This document shows, piece by piece, positions 6,295 to 10,204 of a DNA stretch of 64,000 nucleotides; within the stretch, counting starts at the first letter, position 1; every line of letters starts with the position of its first letter. Source of the stretch: Escherichia coli (GTDB lineage Bacteria > Pseudomonadota > Gammaproteobacteria > Enterobacterales > Enterobacteriaceae); NCBI RefSeq assembly GCF_046105845.1, contig NZ_CP151004.1. One strand, 5' to 3'. Under the pieces are notes generated by a model, which was given only the letters and a program-made list of their open reading frames with translations, was not told the origin of the DNA and made no database searches. The position numbers were made by a program, and so were the translations under genes.

Positions 6295-7197
6295 ATGAAA
6301 AAAACGCTCGCAACGTTATTTTTATTAACGTGTCTGGGATCATCATCCGCCTATGCGGATAACGCTTTGATTTTACAAACTGATTTTAGCCTGAAAGATG
6401 GTGCCGTCTCGGCGATGAAAGGGGTCGCATTCGGCGTTGACCATAATCTTAAAATCTTTGATTTAACACACGAAATTCCACCGTATAACATCTGGGAAGG
6501 CGCTTATCGCCTGTATCAGACTGCCAGTTACTGGCCGCAAGGTTCGGTGTTTGTTAGCGTGGTCGATCCGGGCGTAGGCACTGACCGTAAATCGGTAGTG
6601 CTGAAAACCAAAAACGGTCAGTACTTCGTTTCACCAGATAACGGTACGCTCACTTTGGTGGCACAAACTCTGGGTATTGATAGCGTCCGGGAAATCGACG
6701 AAAAAGCTAACCGCCTGAAAGGTTCTGAAAAGTCATATACCTTCCACGGTCGTGACGTGTATGCCTACACCGGTGCGCGTCTGGCTTCCGGGGCGATTAC
6801 GTTCGAACAGGTGGGGCCAGAGCTTCCTGCAAAAGTTGTCGAACTTTCTTATCAGAAAGCAAAAGCAACAAAAGGTGAAGTGAAGGGCAATATCCCGATT
6901 CTCGATATTCAGTACGGCAACGTCTGGAGCAATATCAGCGACGAGTTGCTGAATCAGGCAGGAATCAAACTCAACGACACGTTGTGTGTGACCATTTCCG
7001 AAGGTTCCCAGCAAAAATACGCAGGGAAAATGCCGTATGTCGCAAGTTTCGGCGATGTGCCGGAAGGCCAGCCGATGGTGTATCTGAACAGCTTATTGAA
7101 TGTTTCCGTGGCGCTGAATATGGATAATTTCGCGCAGAAACATCAGGTTGCATCTGGTGCTGACTGGAATATTGATGTGAAGAAGTGCGCTAAGTAA
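6295..7197 (+). CDS. DUF62 / S-adenosyl-L-methionine hydroxide adenosyltransferase-family protein with a predicted Sec signal peptide
   Basis: 300-aa ORF. N-terminus MKKTLATLFLLTCLGSSSAYA is a typical signal peptide. Mature region carries what I recall as the DUF62 hallmarks: ILQTDFSLKDGAVSAMKGV, VVDPGVGTDRK, SPDNGTL and TFHGRDVYAYTG. Preceded by a purine-rich RBS. Confidence 0.8.
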   Translation: MKKTLATLFLLTCLGSSSAYADNALILQTDFSLKDGAVSAMKGVAFGVDHNLKIFDLTHEIPPYNIWEGAYRLYQTASYWPQGSVFVSVVDPGVGTDRKSVVLKTKNGQYFVSPDNGTLTLVAQTLGIDSVREIDEKANRLKGSEKSYTFHGRDVYAYTGARLASGAITFEQVGPELPAKVVELSYQKAKATKGEVKGNIPILDIQYGNVWSNISDELLNQAGIKLNDTLCVTISEGSQQKYAGKMPYVASFGDVPEGQPMVYLNSLLNVSVALNMDNFAQKHQVASGADWNIDVKKCAK

Positions 7198-7241: not shown

Positions 7242-9404
7242 TCACACCGTCTCCAACCGGGCGTAAGCCGCCACCAGCCATTTAATACCCTGGCCCTGGA
7301 ACGCCACCTGCAAACGGCTATGCTCACCGCTGCCTTCCATATTGACGATGGTGCCTTCACCAAACTTAGCGTGGCGTACGCGCTGGCCGAGCTTGTAGCT
7401 GCTGTCGTTCTCGACCATCGGCGTACCCATCCGTTGATGGCTGACCGGGCGGCTTACCGTGGCGCGCAGGCGCACCTCTTCCACACACTCTTCCGGCAGC
7501 TCGCCGATAAAGCGCGACGGGCGATGGTAAACCTCTTTGCCATACAAACGGCGAGTTTCCGCGTAGGTCAGCGTCAGTTTCTGCATCGCGCGGGTTACGC
7601 CAACGTAGGCCAGACGGCGTTCTTCTTCCAGACGTCCGCCTTCATCCAGCGACATCTGGCTTGGGAACATGCCTTCTTCCATACCAACGATAAACACCTG
7701 CGGGAACTCCAGCCCTTTCGCCGAGTGTAGCGTCATCAACTGCACCGCATCCTGCCAGGTATCCGCCTGCCCCTCGCCCGCTTCCAGTGCCGCATGGGAG
7801 AGGAACGCCTGCAGCGGCATTAAATCTTCGTCTTCTTCGTTGTAGCTGAACTGGCGCGTCGCCGTCACCAGTTCCTCTAAGTTTTCGATACGCGTCTGTC
7901 CTTTTTCGCCCTTCTCCTGCTCGTACATGGTGCGCAGGCCGGAGTCTTTAATGACCCGGTCAGTCTGTACATGCAGCGGCATATCGGCAGTTTCCTGCGC
8001 TAAGGCGTCGATCAGTTCCATAAACCGTTGCAAGGCACTGGCAGCACGTCCGGCGAGGGCTTTTTCCTGCAACAGTTCACGACATGCCTGCCAGAGTGTT
8101 AACTGACGATCGCGCGATGTCTGACGTACCACGTCCAGCGTCCGGTCACCAATACCCCGCGTTGGCGTATTCACCACGCGCTCAAAGGCCGCGTCGTCGT
8201 TGCGGTTGGCAATCAGGCGCAGATATGAGAGCGCGTCTTTGATTTCCTGACGTTCGAAGAAGCGCATCCCGCCGTAAATACGGTACGGCATACTCGCCTG
8301 CAACAGTGCTTCTTCCAGCACGCGCGACTGGGCGTTGCTGCGGTAGAGAATGGCGCACTCGGCGAGCGCCCCGCCGTTGTCCTGCCAGGTCTTGATACGG
8401 TTAACCACAAAACGCGCTTCGTCGAGTTCGTTAAAAGCGCAATAGAGGGAAATCGGCTCACCGTCCGCGCCATCGGTCCACAGTTTTTTACCCAGACGCC
8501 CGTTGTTGTTTTCAATCAGGGCGTTAGCGGCGCTCAGAATATTGCTGGTAGAGCGGTAGTTTTGCTCCAGACGAATAGTTTCGGCACCGGGGAAATCATT
8601 AAGGAAACGCTGAATATTCTCCACCTGCGCCCCGCGCCAGCCGTAGATTGACTGGTCGTCATCGCCAACGATCATCACTTTGCCGGTGTCGCCCGCCAGC
8701 AGGCGGATCCACGCGTACTGAATGTTGTTGGTATCCTGGAATTCGTCCACCAGGATGTTAGTAAAACGTTCGCGGTAGTGTTGCAGGATATGCGGCTTGT
8801 TAAGCCACAACTCGTGAGCACGTAGCAGCAGCTCGGCGAAGTCCACCAGGCCCGCGCGGTCACACGCTTCCTGATACGCCTGATACACCTTCTGCCAGGT
8901 CTGCTCCACCGGATTACCGTAGCTTTGAATATGATGTGGACGCAGGCCTTCATCTTTCTGGCTGTTGATGTACCACATTGCCTGGCGCGGCGGCCACTGC
9001 TTCTCGTCGAGGTTCATCGCCTTGATTAGGCGTTTGAGCAGGCGTAGCTGGTCCTCGCTGTCGAGGATCTGAAAATCCTGCGGCAGATTGGCGTCCATAT
9101 GGTGCGCACGCAGCAGACGGTGCGCCAGCCCGTGGAAGGTGCCGACCCACATGCCGCCCTGGCTGGTGCCCATCAGCTGCCCGATACGATGACGCATCTC
9201 CGCCGCCGCTTTGTTGGTAAACGTTACCGCCATAATCGAGTATGGCGAGCAGTTTTCCACGCTCATCAGCCAGGCGATACGATGCACCAATACGCGCGTC
9301 TTACCACTGCCCGCGCCCGCCAGCACCAGAAGGTTGCTGCGTGGCGCGGCCACCGCTTCGCGCTGTTTGTCATTAAGGCTGTCGAGCAGGTAAGAAACGT
9401 CCAT
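7242..9404 (-). CDS. uvrD: DNA helicase II (UvrD)
   Basis: ORF 7242..9590; internal ATG at 9402-9404 yields the 720-aa protein [38 protein letters not shown]... with Walker A. Confidence 0.95.
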   Translation of the reverse strand: MDVSYLLDSLNDKQREAVAAPRSNLLVLAGAGSGKTRVLVHRIAWLMSVENCSPYSIMAVTFTNKAAAEMRHRIGQLMGTSQGGMWVGTFHGLAHRLLRAHHMDANLPQDFQILDSEDQLRLLKRLIKAMNLDEKQWPPRQAMWYINSQKDEGLRPHHIQSYGNPVEQTWQKVYQAYQEACDRAGLVDFAELLLRAHELWLNKPHILQHYRERFTNILVDEFQDTNNIQYAWIRLLAGDTGKVMIVGDDDQSIYGWRGAQVENIQRFLNDFPGAETIRLEQNYRSTSNILSAANALIENNNGRLGKKLWTDGADGEPISLYCAFNELDEARFVVNRIKTWQDNGGALAECAILYRSNAQSRVLEEALLQASMPYRIYGGMRFFERQEIKDALSYLRLIANRNDDAAFERVVNTPTRGIGDRTLDVVRQTSRDRQLTLWQACRELLQEKALAGRAASALQRFMELIDALAQETADMPLHVQTDRVIKDSGLRTMYEQEKGEKGQTRIENLEELVTATRQFSYNEEDEDLMPLQAFLSHAALEAGEGQADTWQDAVQLMTLHSAKGLEFPQVFIVGMEEGMFPSQMSLDEGGRLEEERRLAYVGVTRAMQKLTLTYAETRRLYGKEVYHRPSRFIGELPEECVEEVRLRATVSRPVSHQRMGTPMVENDSSYKLGQRVRHAKFGEGTIVNMEGSGEHSRLQVAFQGQGIKWLVAAYARLETV

Positions 9405-9452
9405 TGGCACCGCCGCGTAAAAATAGGTTGGGCGGAGAAGCGCAACGCCCTC

Positions 9453-9468
9453 CGCCAAAAAGCTGGGT
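9453..9468 (-). promoter_or_regulatory. LexA (SOS) box in the uvrD promoter
   Basis: Minus-strand sequence ATCTGTATATATACCCAGCT fits the CTGT-N8-ACAG consensus and sits about 50 bp upstream of the uvrD start. Confidence 0.75.
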
Positions 9469-9487
9469 ATATATACAGATTTGCTGA

Positions 9488-10204
9488 TTATATCAGCGAG
9501 GTCAGAGATGCCAACCGGGAAATTTCCAGATGCGGGAGTAAACGGCTGTCCCAGGTTTGCATCAGATCGCCATTTTCCGGTCTGATCCAACAGGCCTGCA
9601 TTCCGCTGCGAATTGCCCCACCCACGTCAGTGGTGAGATCATCCCCGACATGTAAGATCTCGCCGATCGGCACGTTGAGTTTTTCCGCCGCCAGGAAGTA
9701 CATATCGCTGAACGGTTTTGAGCGCCCGTGCGGGCCAGCACGCAGCACAAACTCAAAATAATCCCCCAAACCAAACAGTTCCGGCTGGGCGTTACCGTTG
9801 GTGATCGCCACCAGCGGCCATTTCTTCGCCAGCTGTTTTAAGGTGTCGTGGGTTTGCTGCGGGACATCGATTCGGCTGCGCCATTTGGCAAAGTTGATCA
9901 TTGCTGCGTGTGCGCCTGCACTGGCTTCTTCGGCACTCAGCCCGGCGTCGAGCATGGCTTGTTCAATCGAACGAAAACGCCAGCGCGTCACGTCGTGATA
10001 AATCTCGGGTTCCGCTTCCCGTACCGCCTGGCGCAGGCGTTGCAGATCTTCATTCTGGAAGCTGCGCAGCGCCGGATGATAATTTTGCACAAAGGTAAGC
10101 GCCTCTCGCTCGGTGCGCAAAATCACCGGACGGTTATCGTAAAGGGTATCATCCAGGTCAAAGGTGAGCGCCGAGATGCGCCTCAAAGGCCGGTAAAAAC
10201 GCAT
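9488..10204 (-). CDS. yigB: HAD-family phosphatase YigB (5-amino-6-(5-phospho-D-ribitylamino)uracil phosphatase)
   Basis: 238-aa ORF with the HAD motif FDLDDTLYD near the N-terminus; last gene of the dapF-yigA-xerC-yigB cluster. Confidence 0.9.

What the first reader, a model, noticed from the sequence alone, without database searches (positions are those of the whole stretch)
9421..9487. uvrD SOS box and upstream hairpin within the yigB-uvrD junction
A LexA box (CTGTATATATACCCAG) lies directly after the yigB stop, so uvrD has its own SOS-inducible promoter embedded at the end of the dapF-yigA-xerC-yigB operon. An adjacent dyad (GGCGGAG...CTCCGCC, 9421..9447) could attenuate read-through from yigB.
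Basis: partly seen in the sequence, partly recalled or inferred. Interest (0 to 1): 0.2.

Follow-up and report, generated by a model that had tools for sequence, protein, structure and literature searches.

The report
Known uvrD SOS promoter and leader hairpin
This is the long-known DNA-damage-inducible promoter of the E. coli repair helicase gene uvrD, a LexA repressor site followed by a leader hairpin described as an attenuator in 1983, so it is real but ordinary.

Summary
All features lie on the minus strand.

- **Layout.** yigB ends at 9488 and uvrD starts at 9404. The 88-nt junction matches E. coli K-12 exactly.
- **Promoter.** A near-consensus sigma-70 promoter sits inside the end of yigB: TTGGCA at 9514..9509 and TGnTATAAT at 9492..9487. 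Its -10 hexamer contains the yigB stop codon.
- **LexA box.** CTGTATATATACCCAG (9478..9463) starts 8 nt after the -10. A PWM built without uvrD ranks it first in the window at about 16 bits, against 0.06 expected per window. A LexA-type box occupies the same place across Enterobacterales, Vibrionaceae and Alteromonas.
- **Dyad.** It lies at 9456..9431, not 9421..9447, at -17 kcal/mol and z -3.5. It is downstream of the promoter and box, inside the uvrD 5' leader, so it acts on SOS-induced transcripts as well as on yigB read-through.

[quoted passage not shown] The hairpin is a weak intrinsic terminator by sequence: its U-run starts 7 nt after the stem, and a 2021 Term-seq study lists no 3' end there. 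Other genera carry different hairpins at this position.

Verdict: already known, low interest.

The parts
9488..10204 (-). yigB coding sequence (238 aa), last gene of the lptM-dapF-yigA-xerC-yigB unit. Stop codon TAA at 9490..9488.
   Evidence: The ORF list gives the ORF. RefSeq annotation under the match names it YigB. The operon composition is listed in PMC11376589.
9509..9514 (-). uvrD promoter -35 hexamer TTGGCA, inside the yigB coding sequence.
   Evidence: The promoter scan found an 11/12 match with a 16-nt spacer. At this position 45 of 46 species with yigB upstream have TTGGCA, TTGGCT or TTGGAT.
9487..9492 (-). uvrD promoter -10 hexamer TATAAT with an upstream TG (extended -10). It overlaps the last yigB codon ATA and the stop codon TAA.
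   Evidence: The promoter scan called it. The hexamer is TATAAT in 44 of 46 species and TATAAA in 2. The last yigB codon varies (ATA or CTA) while the hexamer is kept.
9479..9481 (-). Predicted transcription start, about 6-8 nt after the -10 hexamer. This is inferred and was not mapped here.
   Evidence: Inferred from the usual -10-to-start spacing (own knowledge of sigma-70 promoters). No start-site data could be retrieved.
9461..9480 (-). LexA (SOS) box. The 20-mer is ATCTGTATATATACCCAGCT and the 16-mer core CTGTATATATACCCAG is at 9478..9463. It covers roughly +2 to +18 of the predicted transcript.
   Evidence: Consensus and PWM tests put it first in the window. My heterology index is 7.8, against 8.5 published. 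A LexA-type box is conserved upstream of uvrD across gamma-proteobacteria. Reg-Seq found one repressor site in this promoter and assigned it to LexA.
9431..9456 (-). Leader stem-loop GGCGGAGGGCGUUGCGCUUCUCCGCC. It has a 7-bp outer stem, a 3-bp inner stem and a UUG loop. This is the published uvrD attenuator hairpin.
   Evidence: Folding gives -17.1 kcal/mol, z = -3.49. The repeat finder reports the dyad. The junction is identical in 5359 of 5425 E. coli genomes and is single copy. The title of Easton and Kushner 1983 is quoted in PMC7835731.
9419..9423 (-). U5 run in the leader (CAACCUAUUUUUACG), starting 7 nt after the stem.
   Evidence: Read directly from the sequence. The terminator scan did not call this site.
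9408..9414 (-). Shine-Dalgarno-like GGCGGUG ahead of the uvrD start codon.
   Evidence: Read from the sequence. The GGTG core is conserved before the ATG across Enterobacterales. That it is a ribosome-binding site is an inference.
7242..9404 (-). uvrD coding sequence (DNA helicase II). ATG at 9404..9402.
   Evidence: The K-12 and RefSeq annotation aligns to the window. The first 250 aa are 100% identical to E. coli UvrD. The longer ORF (to 9590) is an artefact of the first-start rule.

Best explanation
This is the regulatory region of uvrD (DNA helicase II) exactly as in E. coli K-12.

A strong sigma-70 promoter is built into the last codons of yigB: -35 TTGGCA and an extended -10 TGnTATAAT whose TAA is the yigB stop codon. 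A LexA operator of moderate strength starts 8 nt after the -10, across the predicted start site. LexA dimers bound there block initiation or promoter escape in undamaged cells. RecA-stimulated LexA cleavage after DNA damage then raises uvrD transcription a few-fold.

All transcripts, whether from this promoter or reading through from the upstream operon, next traverse a GC-rich stem-loop about 25 nt into the leader, followed by a pyrimidine-rich and U-rich tract. This hairpin is the element published in 1983 as a transcriptional attenuator. It probably terminates a fraction of transcripts before the coding region. That would cap UvrD levels and buffer uvrD from upstream read-through.

Shown here: sequence identity to K-12, motif significance, and conservation of the promoter and box. 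Taken from the literature: LexA control and attenuation. Inferred: the start site, the mode of repression, and the in vivo strength of termination.
For: - **Identity.** The junction is identical to K-12 MG1655. The genes are annotated yigB and uvrD.
- **Promoter.** The scan gives an 11/12 match with TG before the -10, against 0.4 expected in the region.
- **LexA box significance.** It is the only consensus-like site in the window, against 0.07 expected. It ranks first under a PWM built from 18 LexA sites, each of which I verified to lie upstream of its SOS gene in K-12. The score is inside the range of true sites, though 13 of 18 score higher.
- **Conservation.** In 46 species with yigB upstream, the -10 is TATAAT or TATAAA in all 46 and the -35 is kept in 45. 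A LexA-type box starts 1-14 nt after the -10 in 45. Vibrionaceae, Alteromonas and Moritella also carry a box upstream of uvrD.
[quoted passage not shown] Salmonella uvrD is LexA-regulated and induced 13.9-fold by nalidixic acid. Reg-Seq found one repressor site in the promoter and assigned it to LexA.
- **Hairpin.** It folds at -17.1 kcal/mol, z = -3.5. The 88-nt junction is invariant in 5359 of 5425 E. coli genomes, whereas the 501-nt query that includes coding flanks is >=99% identical in only 1105.
- **Hairpins elsewhere.** Leaders of 34 other Enterobacterales fold better than shuffles (mean z -1.58, 12 with z < -2). The hairpins sit right after the box and often carry C/U-rich tails.
Against: - **Not a canonical terminator.** The outer stem encloses 12 nt. 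The U5 run starts 7 nt after the stem. The simple terminator scan does not call it.
- **No mapped 3' end.** The uncut Term-seq and Rho tables of Adams et al. 2021 contain no entry naming uvrD or yigB. This is weak negative evidence, because the promoter is repressed under those conditions.
- **Weak whole-leader signal.** The 81-nt leader is not more structured than shuffles (z -0.11).
- **Thin covariation.** Five sequences give 1 compensatory pair and 2 G-U changes, not significant at 110/500 shuffles. One E. coli strain carries a stem mismatch.
- **Not universal.** Six of 40 species have no room for a hairpin.
- **Sources not read.** The 1983 paper and the LexA ChIP-chip paper could not be read here. 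The attenuation claim therefore rests on a title.
- **Database rating.** Reg-Seq notes that the database LexA site for uvrD is rated low-evidence.
Confidence: 0.85

Rival explanations
1. The hairpin is mainly the end-of-operon terminator or insulator for lptM-dapF-yigA-xerC-yigB. The uvrD promoter overlaps the yigB stop codon, so the only place left for such a terminator is inside the uvrD leader. Any effect on uvrD-promoter transcripts would then be a side effect.
For: The operon is described as ending at yigB. The hairpin is the first stable structure after the yigB stop. In several genera the equivalent element looks like a proper terminator, a hairpin followed directly by a T-run: L010, L016, L042, L019 and L020.
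Against: It lies downstream of the promoter, so it cannot discriminate between transcript origins. Six species have only 12-25 nt between the box and the ATG and no hairpin at all, so read-through into uvrD is tolerated there. No yigB 3' end appears in the Term-seq tables. The U-run is displaced by 7 nt from the stem.
Confidence: 0.3
2. The hairpin does not terminate transcription in vivo to any useful degree. Instead it acts on the RNA, for example as a 5'-proximal structure that protects uvrD mRNA from 5'-end-dependent decay or sets translation efficiency.
For: The geometry is not that of a canonical terminator. No 3' end is reported in the Term-seq tables. In MAG L005 the same hairpin is kept, with one compensatory G-C to U-A change, although a 51-nt REP-like insertion replaces the U-run. 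Hairpins recur in other genera, not all with U-tails.
Against: The published title reports attenuation. The stem starts about 25 nt from the predicted 5' end rather than at it. A specific test for complementarity between the hairpin and the Shine-Dalgarno region was negative, with mean z -0.18 over 34 species. No stability data were available.
Confidence: 0.15
3. The dyad is a chance GC-rich palindrome with no function, and only the LexA box matters.
For: The whole-leader fold is unremarkable (z -0.11). Covariation is not significant. The leader sequence is not conserved between genera and is absent in some.
Against: The hairpin alone has z = -3.5, with 0 of 200 shuffles as stable. The junction is invariant in 98.8% of 5425 E. 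coli genomes, while the 501-nt query that includes the coding flanks is more variable. Structured leaders are in excess across 34 species, t-test p about 1e-7, though the species are not phylogenetically independent.
Confidence: 0.07

Closest known systems
[quoted passage not shown]
   Same: The sequence is identical from the -35 hexamer to the uvrD start codon. It has the same promoter, the same LexA box and the same leader hairpin. This is that element in another E. coli strain.
   Different: Nothing in the regulatory region differs. The strain is not K-12. The 501-nt query that includes the coding flanks is at most 99.6% identical to any complete E. coli genome. An extra gene lies between uvrD and yigE.
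Canonical E. coli LexA operators (recA, sulA, umuDC, lexA, uvrA/ssb, uvrB, recN, dinB and others)
   Same: It has the CTG-N10-CAG invariants and a (TA)n core. Its PWM score falls inside the leave-one-out range of 18 verified sites. It overlaps a promoter.
   Different: It is of moderate to weak strength. One half-site reads CCAG, as in 6 of the 18 training sites. My heterology index is 7.8 and the published value is 8.5, and 13 of 18 sites score higher. It sits just downstream of the -10 over the predicted start site rather than over the -35/-10 region.
Rho-independent terminators and leader attenuators (for example pyrBI, pyrE, trp leaders)
   Same: A GC-rich stem-loop followed by U residues lies in a 5' leader between the promoter and the coding sequence.
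   Different: The U-run starts 7 nt after the stem. There is no leader peptide and no evident alternative antiterminator pairing. No signal is known to modulate it, so any effect is probably constitutive damping rather than regulated attenuation.
Salmonella enterica uvrD SOS box (Pang and Walker 1983; Mérida-Floriano et al. 2021, PMC8072944)
   Same: The orthologous gene is LexA-regulated, with one box upstream of uvrD.
   Different: In Salmonella the box is 105 bp from the ATG with heterology index 11.5. In this window the distance is 58 nt from the 16-mer core, or 56 nt from the 20-mer. The leader length varies between genera, from 12 to 134 nt in my set.

Membership tests
LexA (SOS) operator, gamma-proteobacterial type | Invariant CTG-N10-CAG half-sites | tested here: met
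   CTGTATATATACCCAG lies at 9478..9463. The pattern alone is not above chance in the window (18 found, 14.2 expected).
LexA (SOS) operator, gamma-proteobacterial type | AT-rich (TA)n core, with overall similarity to the consensus TACTG(TA)5CAGTA scoring like validated sites | tested here: met
   The site has 2 mismatches to the 16-mer consensus and is the only one in the window at <=3 mismatches, against 0.07 expected. The PWM built without uvrD gives 16.0-16.3 bits, first in the window, with 0.058 such sites per simulated window. The heterology index is 7.8, within the training range of 0.7-9.1. The consensus is quoted in PMC11228462.
LexA (SOS) operator, gamma-proteobacterial type | Overlaps or abuts a promoter, so that bound LexA interferes with RNA polymerase | tested here: met
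   The box starts 8 nt after a TGnTATAAT -10 hexamer belonging to an 11/12 sigma-70 match. The same arrangement holds in 45 of 46 species. The transcription start is predicted, not mapped.
LexA (SOS) operator, gamma-proteobacterial type | Conserved in orthologous promoters | tested here: met
   A LexA-type box lies upstream of uvrD in nearly all Enterobacterales, Vibrionaceae, Alteromonas and Moritella loci. It is absent in Shewanella and degenerate in Xenorhabdus L033.
LexA (SOS) operator, gamma-proteobacterial type | LexA binds it, and the gene is derepressed on DNA damage in a lexA- and recA-dependent way | not testable with these tools
   This rests on the literature only: the Easton and Kushner 1983 title, the list of LexA-regulated genes with 2.1-fold induction, the Reg-Seq repressor site, and Salmonella induction. 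The LexA ChIP-chip paper is not held.
Rho-independent terminator / leader attenuator | Stable GC-rich stem-loop in the nascent RNA | tested here: met
   The stem-loop has 7 + 3 bp and folds at -17.1 kcal/mol, z = -3.49.
Rho-independent terminator / leader attenuator | U-tract immediately (0-2 nt) after the stem | tested here: not met
   The U5 run (9423..9419) starts 7 nt after the last stem base (9431). The terminator scan does not call the site.
Rho-independent terminator / leader attenuator | Transcript 3' ends map just after the hairpin | tested here: inconclusive
   No entry naming uvrD or yigB appears in the complete Term-seq and Rho tables of Adams et al. 2021. Those cultures were not SOS-induced. 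In vitro attenuation is claimed by the 1983 title, but that paper could not be read.
Rho-independent terminator / leader attenuator | Structure maintained in evolution (compensatory changes) | tested here: inconclusive
   Five sequences share the E. coli-type hairpin. Of pair cells, 96% are paired, with 1 compensatory pair, 2 G-U changes and 2 mismatches, which is not significant at 110/500. Non-homologous hairpins recur at the same place in other genera, with mean z -1.58.
REP/BIME or other repeated extragenic palindrome | Many dispersed copies per genome | tested here: not met
   The 88-nt junction occurs once per genome, with a median of 1 place across 5425 genomes. There is no Rfam match.

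The most novel reading that the evidence does not exclude
The uvrD leader hairpin may be one instance of a module that Enterobacterales keep re-inventing. Directly after the LexA box, most genera carry a GC-rich stem-loop of unrelated sequence, often with a pyrimidine-rich tail, and a minority have none.

The E. coli version has a displaced U-run and leaves no Term-seq 3' end. Its selected role may therefore not be classical termination. It could instead insulate uvrD from the upstream operon, or act on the RNA through stability or processing.
Probability: 0.15. Interest if true: 0.3.

Novelty: already known. Interest (0 to 1): 0.07.

Why it matters
The result matters mainly as a correct annotation. 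It marks where SOS control of the helicase used in nucleotide-excision and mismatch repair is exerted. It also shows how a promoter can be packed into the last codons and stop codon of the preceding gene.

Nothing here changes current understanding. The only mildly open point is 40 years old: how much the leader hairpin really terminates transcription in vivo, given its non-canonical U-tract. Modern 3'-end mapping under SOS induction could settle that easily.

Tried and rejected
1. **Minimal motif.** CTG-N10-CAG alone is not informative (18 found, 14.2 expected), so I used the full consensus and a PWM instead.
2. **Anti-Shine-Dalgarno idea.** One hairpin arm (CUCCGCC) looks complementary to the uvrD ribosome-binding site GGCGGUG, and similar cases caught my eye in L007, L010, L013 and L017. 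Duplex energies against dinucleotide shuffles show no excess: mean z -0.18 over 34 species, none below -2, and z +0.5 for the window. Rejected.
3. **Known RNA family.** There is no Rfam match in 9300..9650 at E <= 1.
4. **Repeated element (REP-like).** The junction is single copy per genome. Rejected for E. coli, although L005 has a REP-like insertion next to the hairpin.
5. **Covariation.** Too few sequences share the E. coli-type hairpin, and the result is not significant.
6. **In vivo 3' ends.** The Adams 2021 tables hold nothing for uvrD or yigB. The supplement of Dar and Sorek 2018 is not held. The PMC id I tried for a start-site paper (Thomason 2015) is not held.
7. **Primary sources.** Easton and Kushner 1983 and the PMC id I tried for the LexA ChIP-chip paper (Wade 2005) are not held. 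Only the 1983 title could be cited.
8. **PWM runner-up.** The site at 53000..53019 (13.4 bits) lacks the invariant CTG, so I treat it as chance.
9. **Plus-strand terminator-like hit.** The hit at 9341..9366 lies inside uvrD, antisense to it, and is within the chance expectation.

Full report
**What is there**

All relevant features are on the minus strand. The ORF list and the raw sequence show a 238-aa ORF ending with TAA at 9490..9488. An ATG follows at 9404..9402 and opens a long ORF running to 7242.

A 501-nt query across the junction matches 5425 of 5426 complete E. coli genomes. There the two genes are annotated yigB (5-amino-6-(5-phospho-D-ribitylamino)uracil phosphatase) and uvrD (DNA helicase II). 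They are preceded by lptM-dapF-yigA-xerC. From the -35 hexamer to the uvrD start codon, the window is base-for-base identical to K-12 MG1655.

**The promoter**

The consensus scan finds one sigma-70-like site in 9200..9800. It reads TTGGCA (9514..9509), a 16-nt spacer, then TATAAT (9492..9487), an 11/12 match with a TG before the -10. The region's expectation is 0.4 such sites.

The -10 hexamer is made of the last two bases of the final yigB codon (ATA), the stop codon TAA and one further base. The promoter is therefore embedded in the end of the upstream gene.

I compared 46 species that have a yigB-like ORF upstream of uvrD: Enterobacterales, one uncultured-Enterobacterales MAG and Moritella.
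- The hexamer overlapping the stop codon is TATAAT in 44 species and TATAAA in 2.
- The -35 hexamer at a 16-nt spacer is TTGGCA, TTGGCT or TTGGAT in 45.
- The final yigB codon alternates between ATA and CTA while the hexamer is kept. Both are rare codons in E. coli (own knowledge). This argues for selection on the promoter rather than on the protein.

**The LexA box**

CTGTATATATACCCAG lies at 9478..9463, beginning 8 nt after the -10 and 9 nt after the yigB stop codon.

The minimal CTG-N10-CAG pattern is not above chance in the window (18 found, 14.2 expected). The full motif is. This is the only site in 64 kb within 3 mismatches of the 16-mer consensus CTGTATATATATACAG, with 2 mismatches against 0.07 expected.

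For a PWM I recalled 18 published E. coli LexA 20-mers. I then checked that each is present exactly, immediately upstream of its named SOS gene, in K-12 regions I fetched. The PWM was symmetric and left uvrD out.
- The uvrD site scores 16.0-16.3 bits and is the best in the window. The runner-up scores 13.4 bits and lacks the CTG.
- A site that good occurs 0.058 times per simulated 64-kb window, in 29 of 500 windows.
- The score lies inside the leave-one-out range of the true sites, although 13 of 18 score higher.
- My heterology index is 7.8. A 2024 paper quotes 8.5 for uvrD from Courcelle et al. and lists uvrD among the LexA-regulated genes, with 2.1-fold induction.

**Conservation of the box**

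In the 80 uvrD loci retrieved from representative genomes, a LexA-type box lies just upstream of uvrD in most lineages.
- It is present in essentially all Enterobacterales, with Xenorhabdus ehlersii as the exception.
- It is also present in Vibrionaceae, Alteromonas and Moritella.
- It is absent in Shewanella.
- In the species with yigB upstream, the box starts 1-14 nt after the -10 in 45 of 46.

**The dyad**

- The perfect arms GGCGGAG and CTCCGCC are at 9456..9450 and 9437..9431. The repeat finder extends them to 10 nt at 90% complementarity, 12 nt apart.
- As RNA the 26-mer folds at -17.1 kcal/mol, z = -3.49.
- The whole 81-nt leader is unremarkable (z = -0.11).
- The hairpin lies downstream of the promoter and the box, about 25 nt into the predicted transcript. 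It is followed by CAACCUAUUUUUACG, a Shine-Dalgarno-like GGCGGUG (9414..9408) and the ATG.

The hairpin therefore acts on transcripts from the uvrD promoter as well as on any read-through from yigB. It cannot be a selective barrier to read-through.

**What is already known**

[quoted passage not shown] I could not read the 1983 paper itself, so I take only its title-level claims.
- Reg-Seq mutational scanning found one repressor site in the uvrD promoter and assigned it to LexA bioinformatically. It notes that the database site is rated low-evidence.
- Salmonella uvrD is LexA-regulated, with one box 105 bp from the ATG and 13.9-fold induction by nalidixic acid.
- The upstream operon is listed as yifL(lptM)-dapF-yigA-xerC-yigB.

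Both elements of the finding are thus textbook-level knowledge for this locus.

**How good an attenuator is it?**

By sequence it is non-canonical. The outer stem encloses 12 nt, the U5 run (9423..9419) starts 7 nt after the stem, and the terminator scan does not call it.

The complete, uncut supplementary tables of a 2021 E. coli Term-seq and Rho study contain no entry naming uvrD or yigB. This is weak negative evidence, since the cultures were not SOS-induced.

Within E. coli the 88-nt junction is identical in 5359 of 5425 genomes. The 501-nt query that includes coding flanks is >=99% identical in only 1105. This suggests constraint on the whole leader.

Between genera the leader is not conserved in sequence or length, with 12-134 nt from box to ATG.
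- Thirty-four species with enough room fold better than dinucleotide shuffles: mean z -1.58, 12 with z < -2, t-test p about 1e-7. The species are not phylogenetically independent.
- The hairpin sits directly after the box and often carries a C/U-rich tail.
- Several look like proper terminators: L010, L016, L042, L019 and L020.
- Six of 40 species have no room for any hairpin.

Among the five sequences that share the E. coli-type hairpin, 96% of pair cells are paired. There is one compensatory G-C to U-A change and two G-U changes, which is not statistically significant (110/500).

**Mechanism I commit to**

LexA bound over the predicted start site represses a strong promoter embedded in yigB. 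SOS induction relieves the repression. A leader hairpin then damps all transcription entering uvrD, whether from this promoter or from upstream, by partial termination.

My confidence is about 0.95 for the promoter and LexA part and about 0.6 for termination as the hairpin's main role.

The rivals are an end-of-operon insulator, an RNA-level role, and no function. They are set out with their tests in the structured fields.

**Rejected ideas**

- An anti-Shine-Dalgarno switch, because there was no excess complementarity.
- A known RNA family, because Rfam gave no match.
- A dispersed repeat, because the junction is single copy per genome.

**Verdict**

The element has been known since 1983, so interest is low.

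Noticed in passing
L095 (E. coli AMSCJX02, NZ_CP031105.1 2421115-2421320), aligned to window 9471..9478: One complete E. coli genome, from giant panda faeces, has a 2-bp TA deletion inside the LexA box, giving CTGTATATACCCAG (CTG-N8-CAG). The changed half-site spacing should abolish LexA binding, so uvrD may be constitutive in that strain. It could equally be slippage in the (TA)n run or an assembly error. In all, 66 of 5425 genomes differ somewhere in the 88-nt junction.
   Followed up: partly
L003 2385-2506 (E. coli SCPM-O-B-8794): The GTDB representative E. coli genome carries a G-to-A change in the 3' arm of the hairpin (CTCCACC). This creates a C-A mismatch in the stem and weakens the fold.
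   Followed up: partly
L005 about 2420-2475 (MAG CTSoil_132, an Enterobacteriaceae-like genome): This leader keeps the E. coli-type hairpin with a compensatory G-C to U-A pair. It also has a 51-nt insertion right after the hairpin, containing a REP-like palindrome (GTAGGCCCGGTAAGCGAAGCGCCATCGGGC), in place of the U-run.
   Followed up: partly
window 6295..7197 (+): A 300-aa ORF lies between uvrD and yigE. The equivalent gene is annotated in strain Ecol_316 as a SAM hydrolase/SAM-dependent halogenase family protein. K-12 MG1655 has no gene there, so the window comes from a non-K-12 strain with an accessory gene convergent with uvrD.
   Followed up: no
L049, L052, L055, L059-L061, L065, L075, L076 (Shewanella) and L033 (Xenorhabdus ehlersii), 300 nt upstream of uvrD: These loci show no LexA-type box upstream of uvrD, with best PWM scores from -3.6 to 6.9. 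Xenorhabdus has a decayed box (ATCTATATAAAAATATTA) at the usual position, whereas Photorhabdus keeps a good one. This suggests lineage-specific loss of SOS control of uvrD.
   Followed up: no
L051, L053, L056, L057, L062-L064, L066-L074, L081, L082 (Vibrionaceae), 6-18 nt upstream of the uvrD ATG (127 nt in L069): In these Vibrionaceae loci the best box upstream of uvrD has a non-canonical left half-site: ATG, TTG, GTG or similar in place of CTG, for example TTATGTATAAATAACCAGTA. In nearly all of them it lies almost against the start codon. The deviation is conserved across many species.
   Followed up: no
window 9483..9497: A perfect 6-nt inverted repeat, GCTGAT-ATA-ATCAGC, brackets the -10 hexamer and the yigB stop codon. 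The right arm is not kept in other genera, which read TCACC instead of TCAGC, so it is probably chance.
   Followed up: partly
window 53000..53019: The second-best PWM hit is TACTTTATTTACTCCCAGTG at 13.4 bits. It sits at the start of a 616-aa minus-strand ORF (51150..53000). By position relative to K-12 this is probably ilvD, which I did not verify. The site lacks the invariant CTG, so I treat it as chance.
   Followed up: partly
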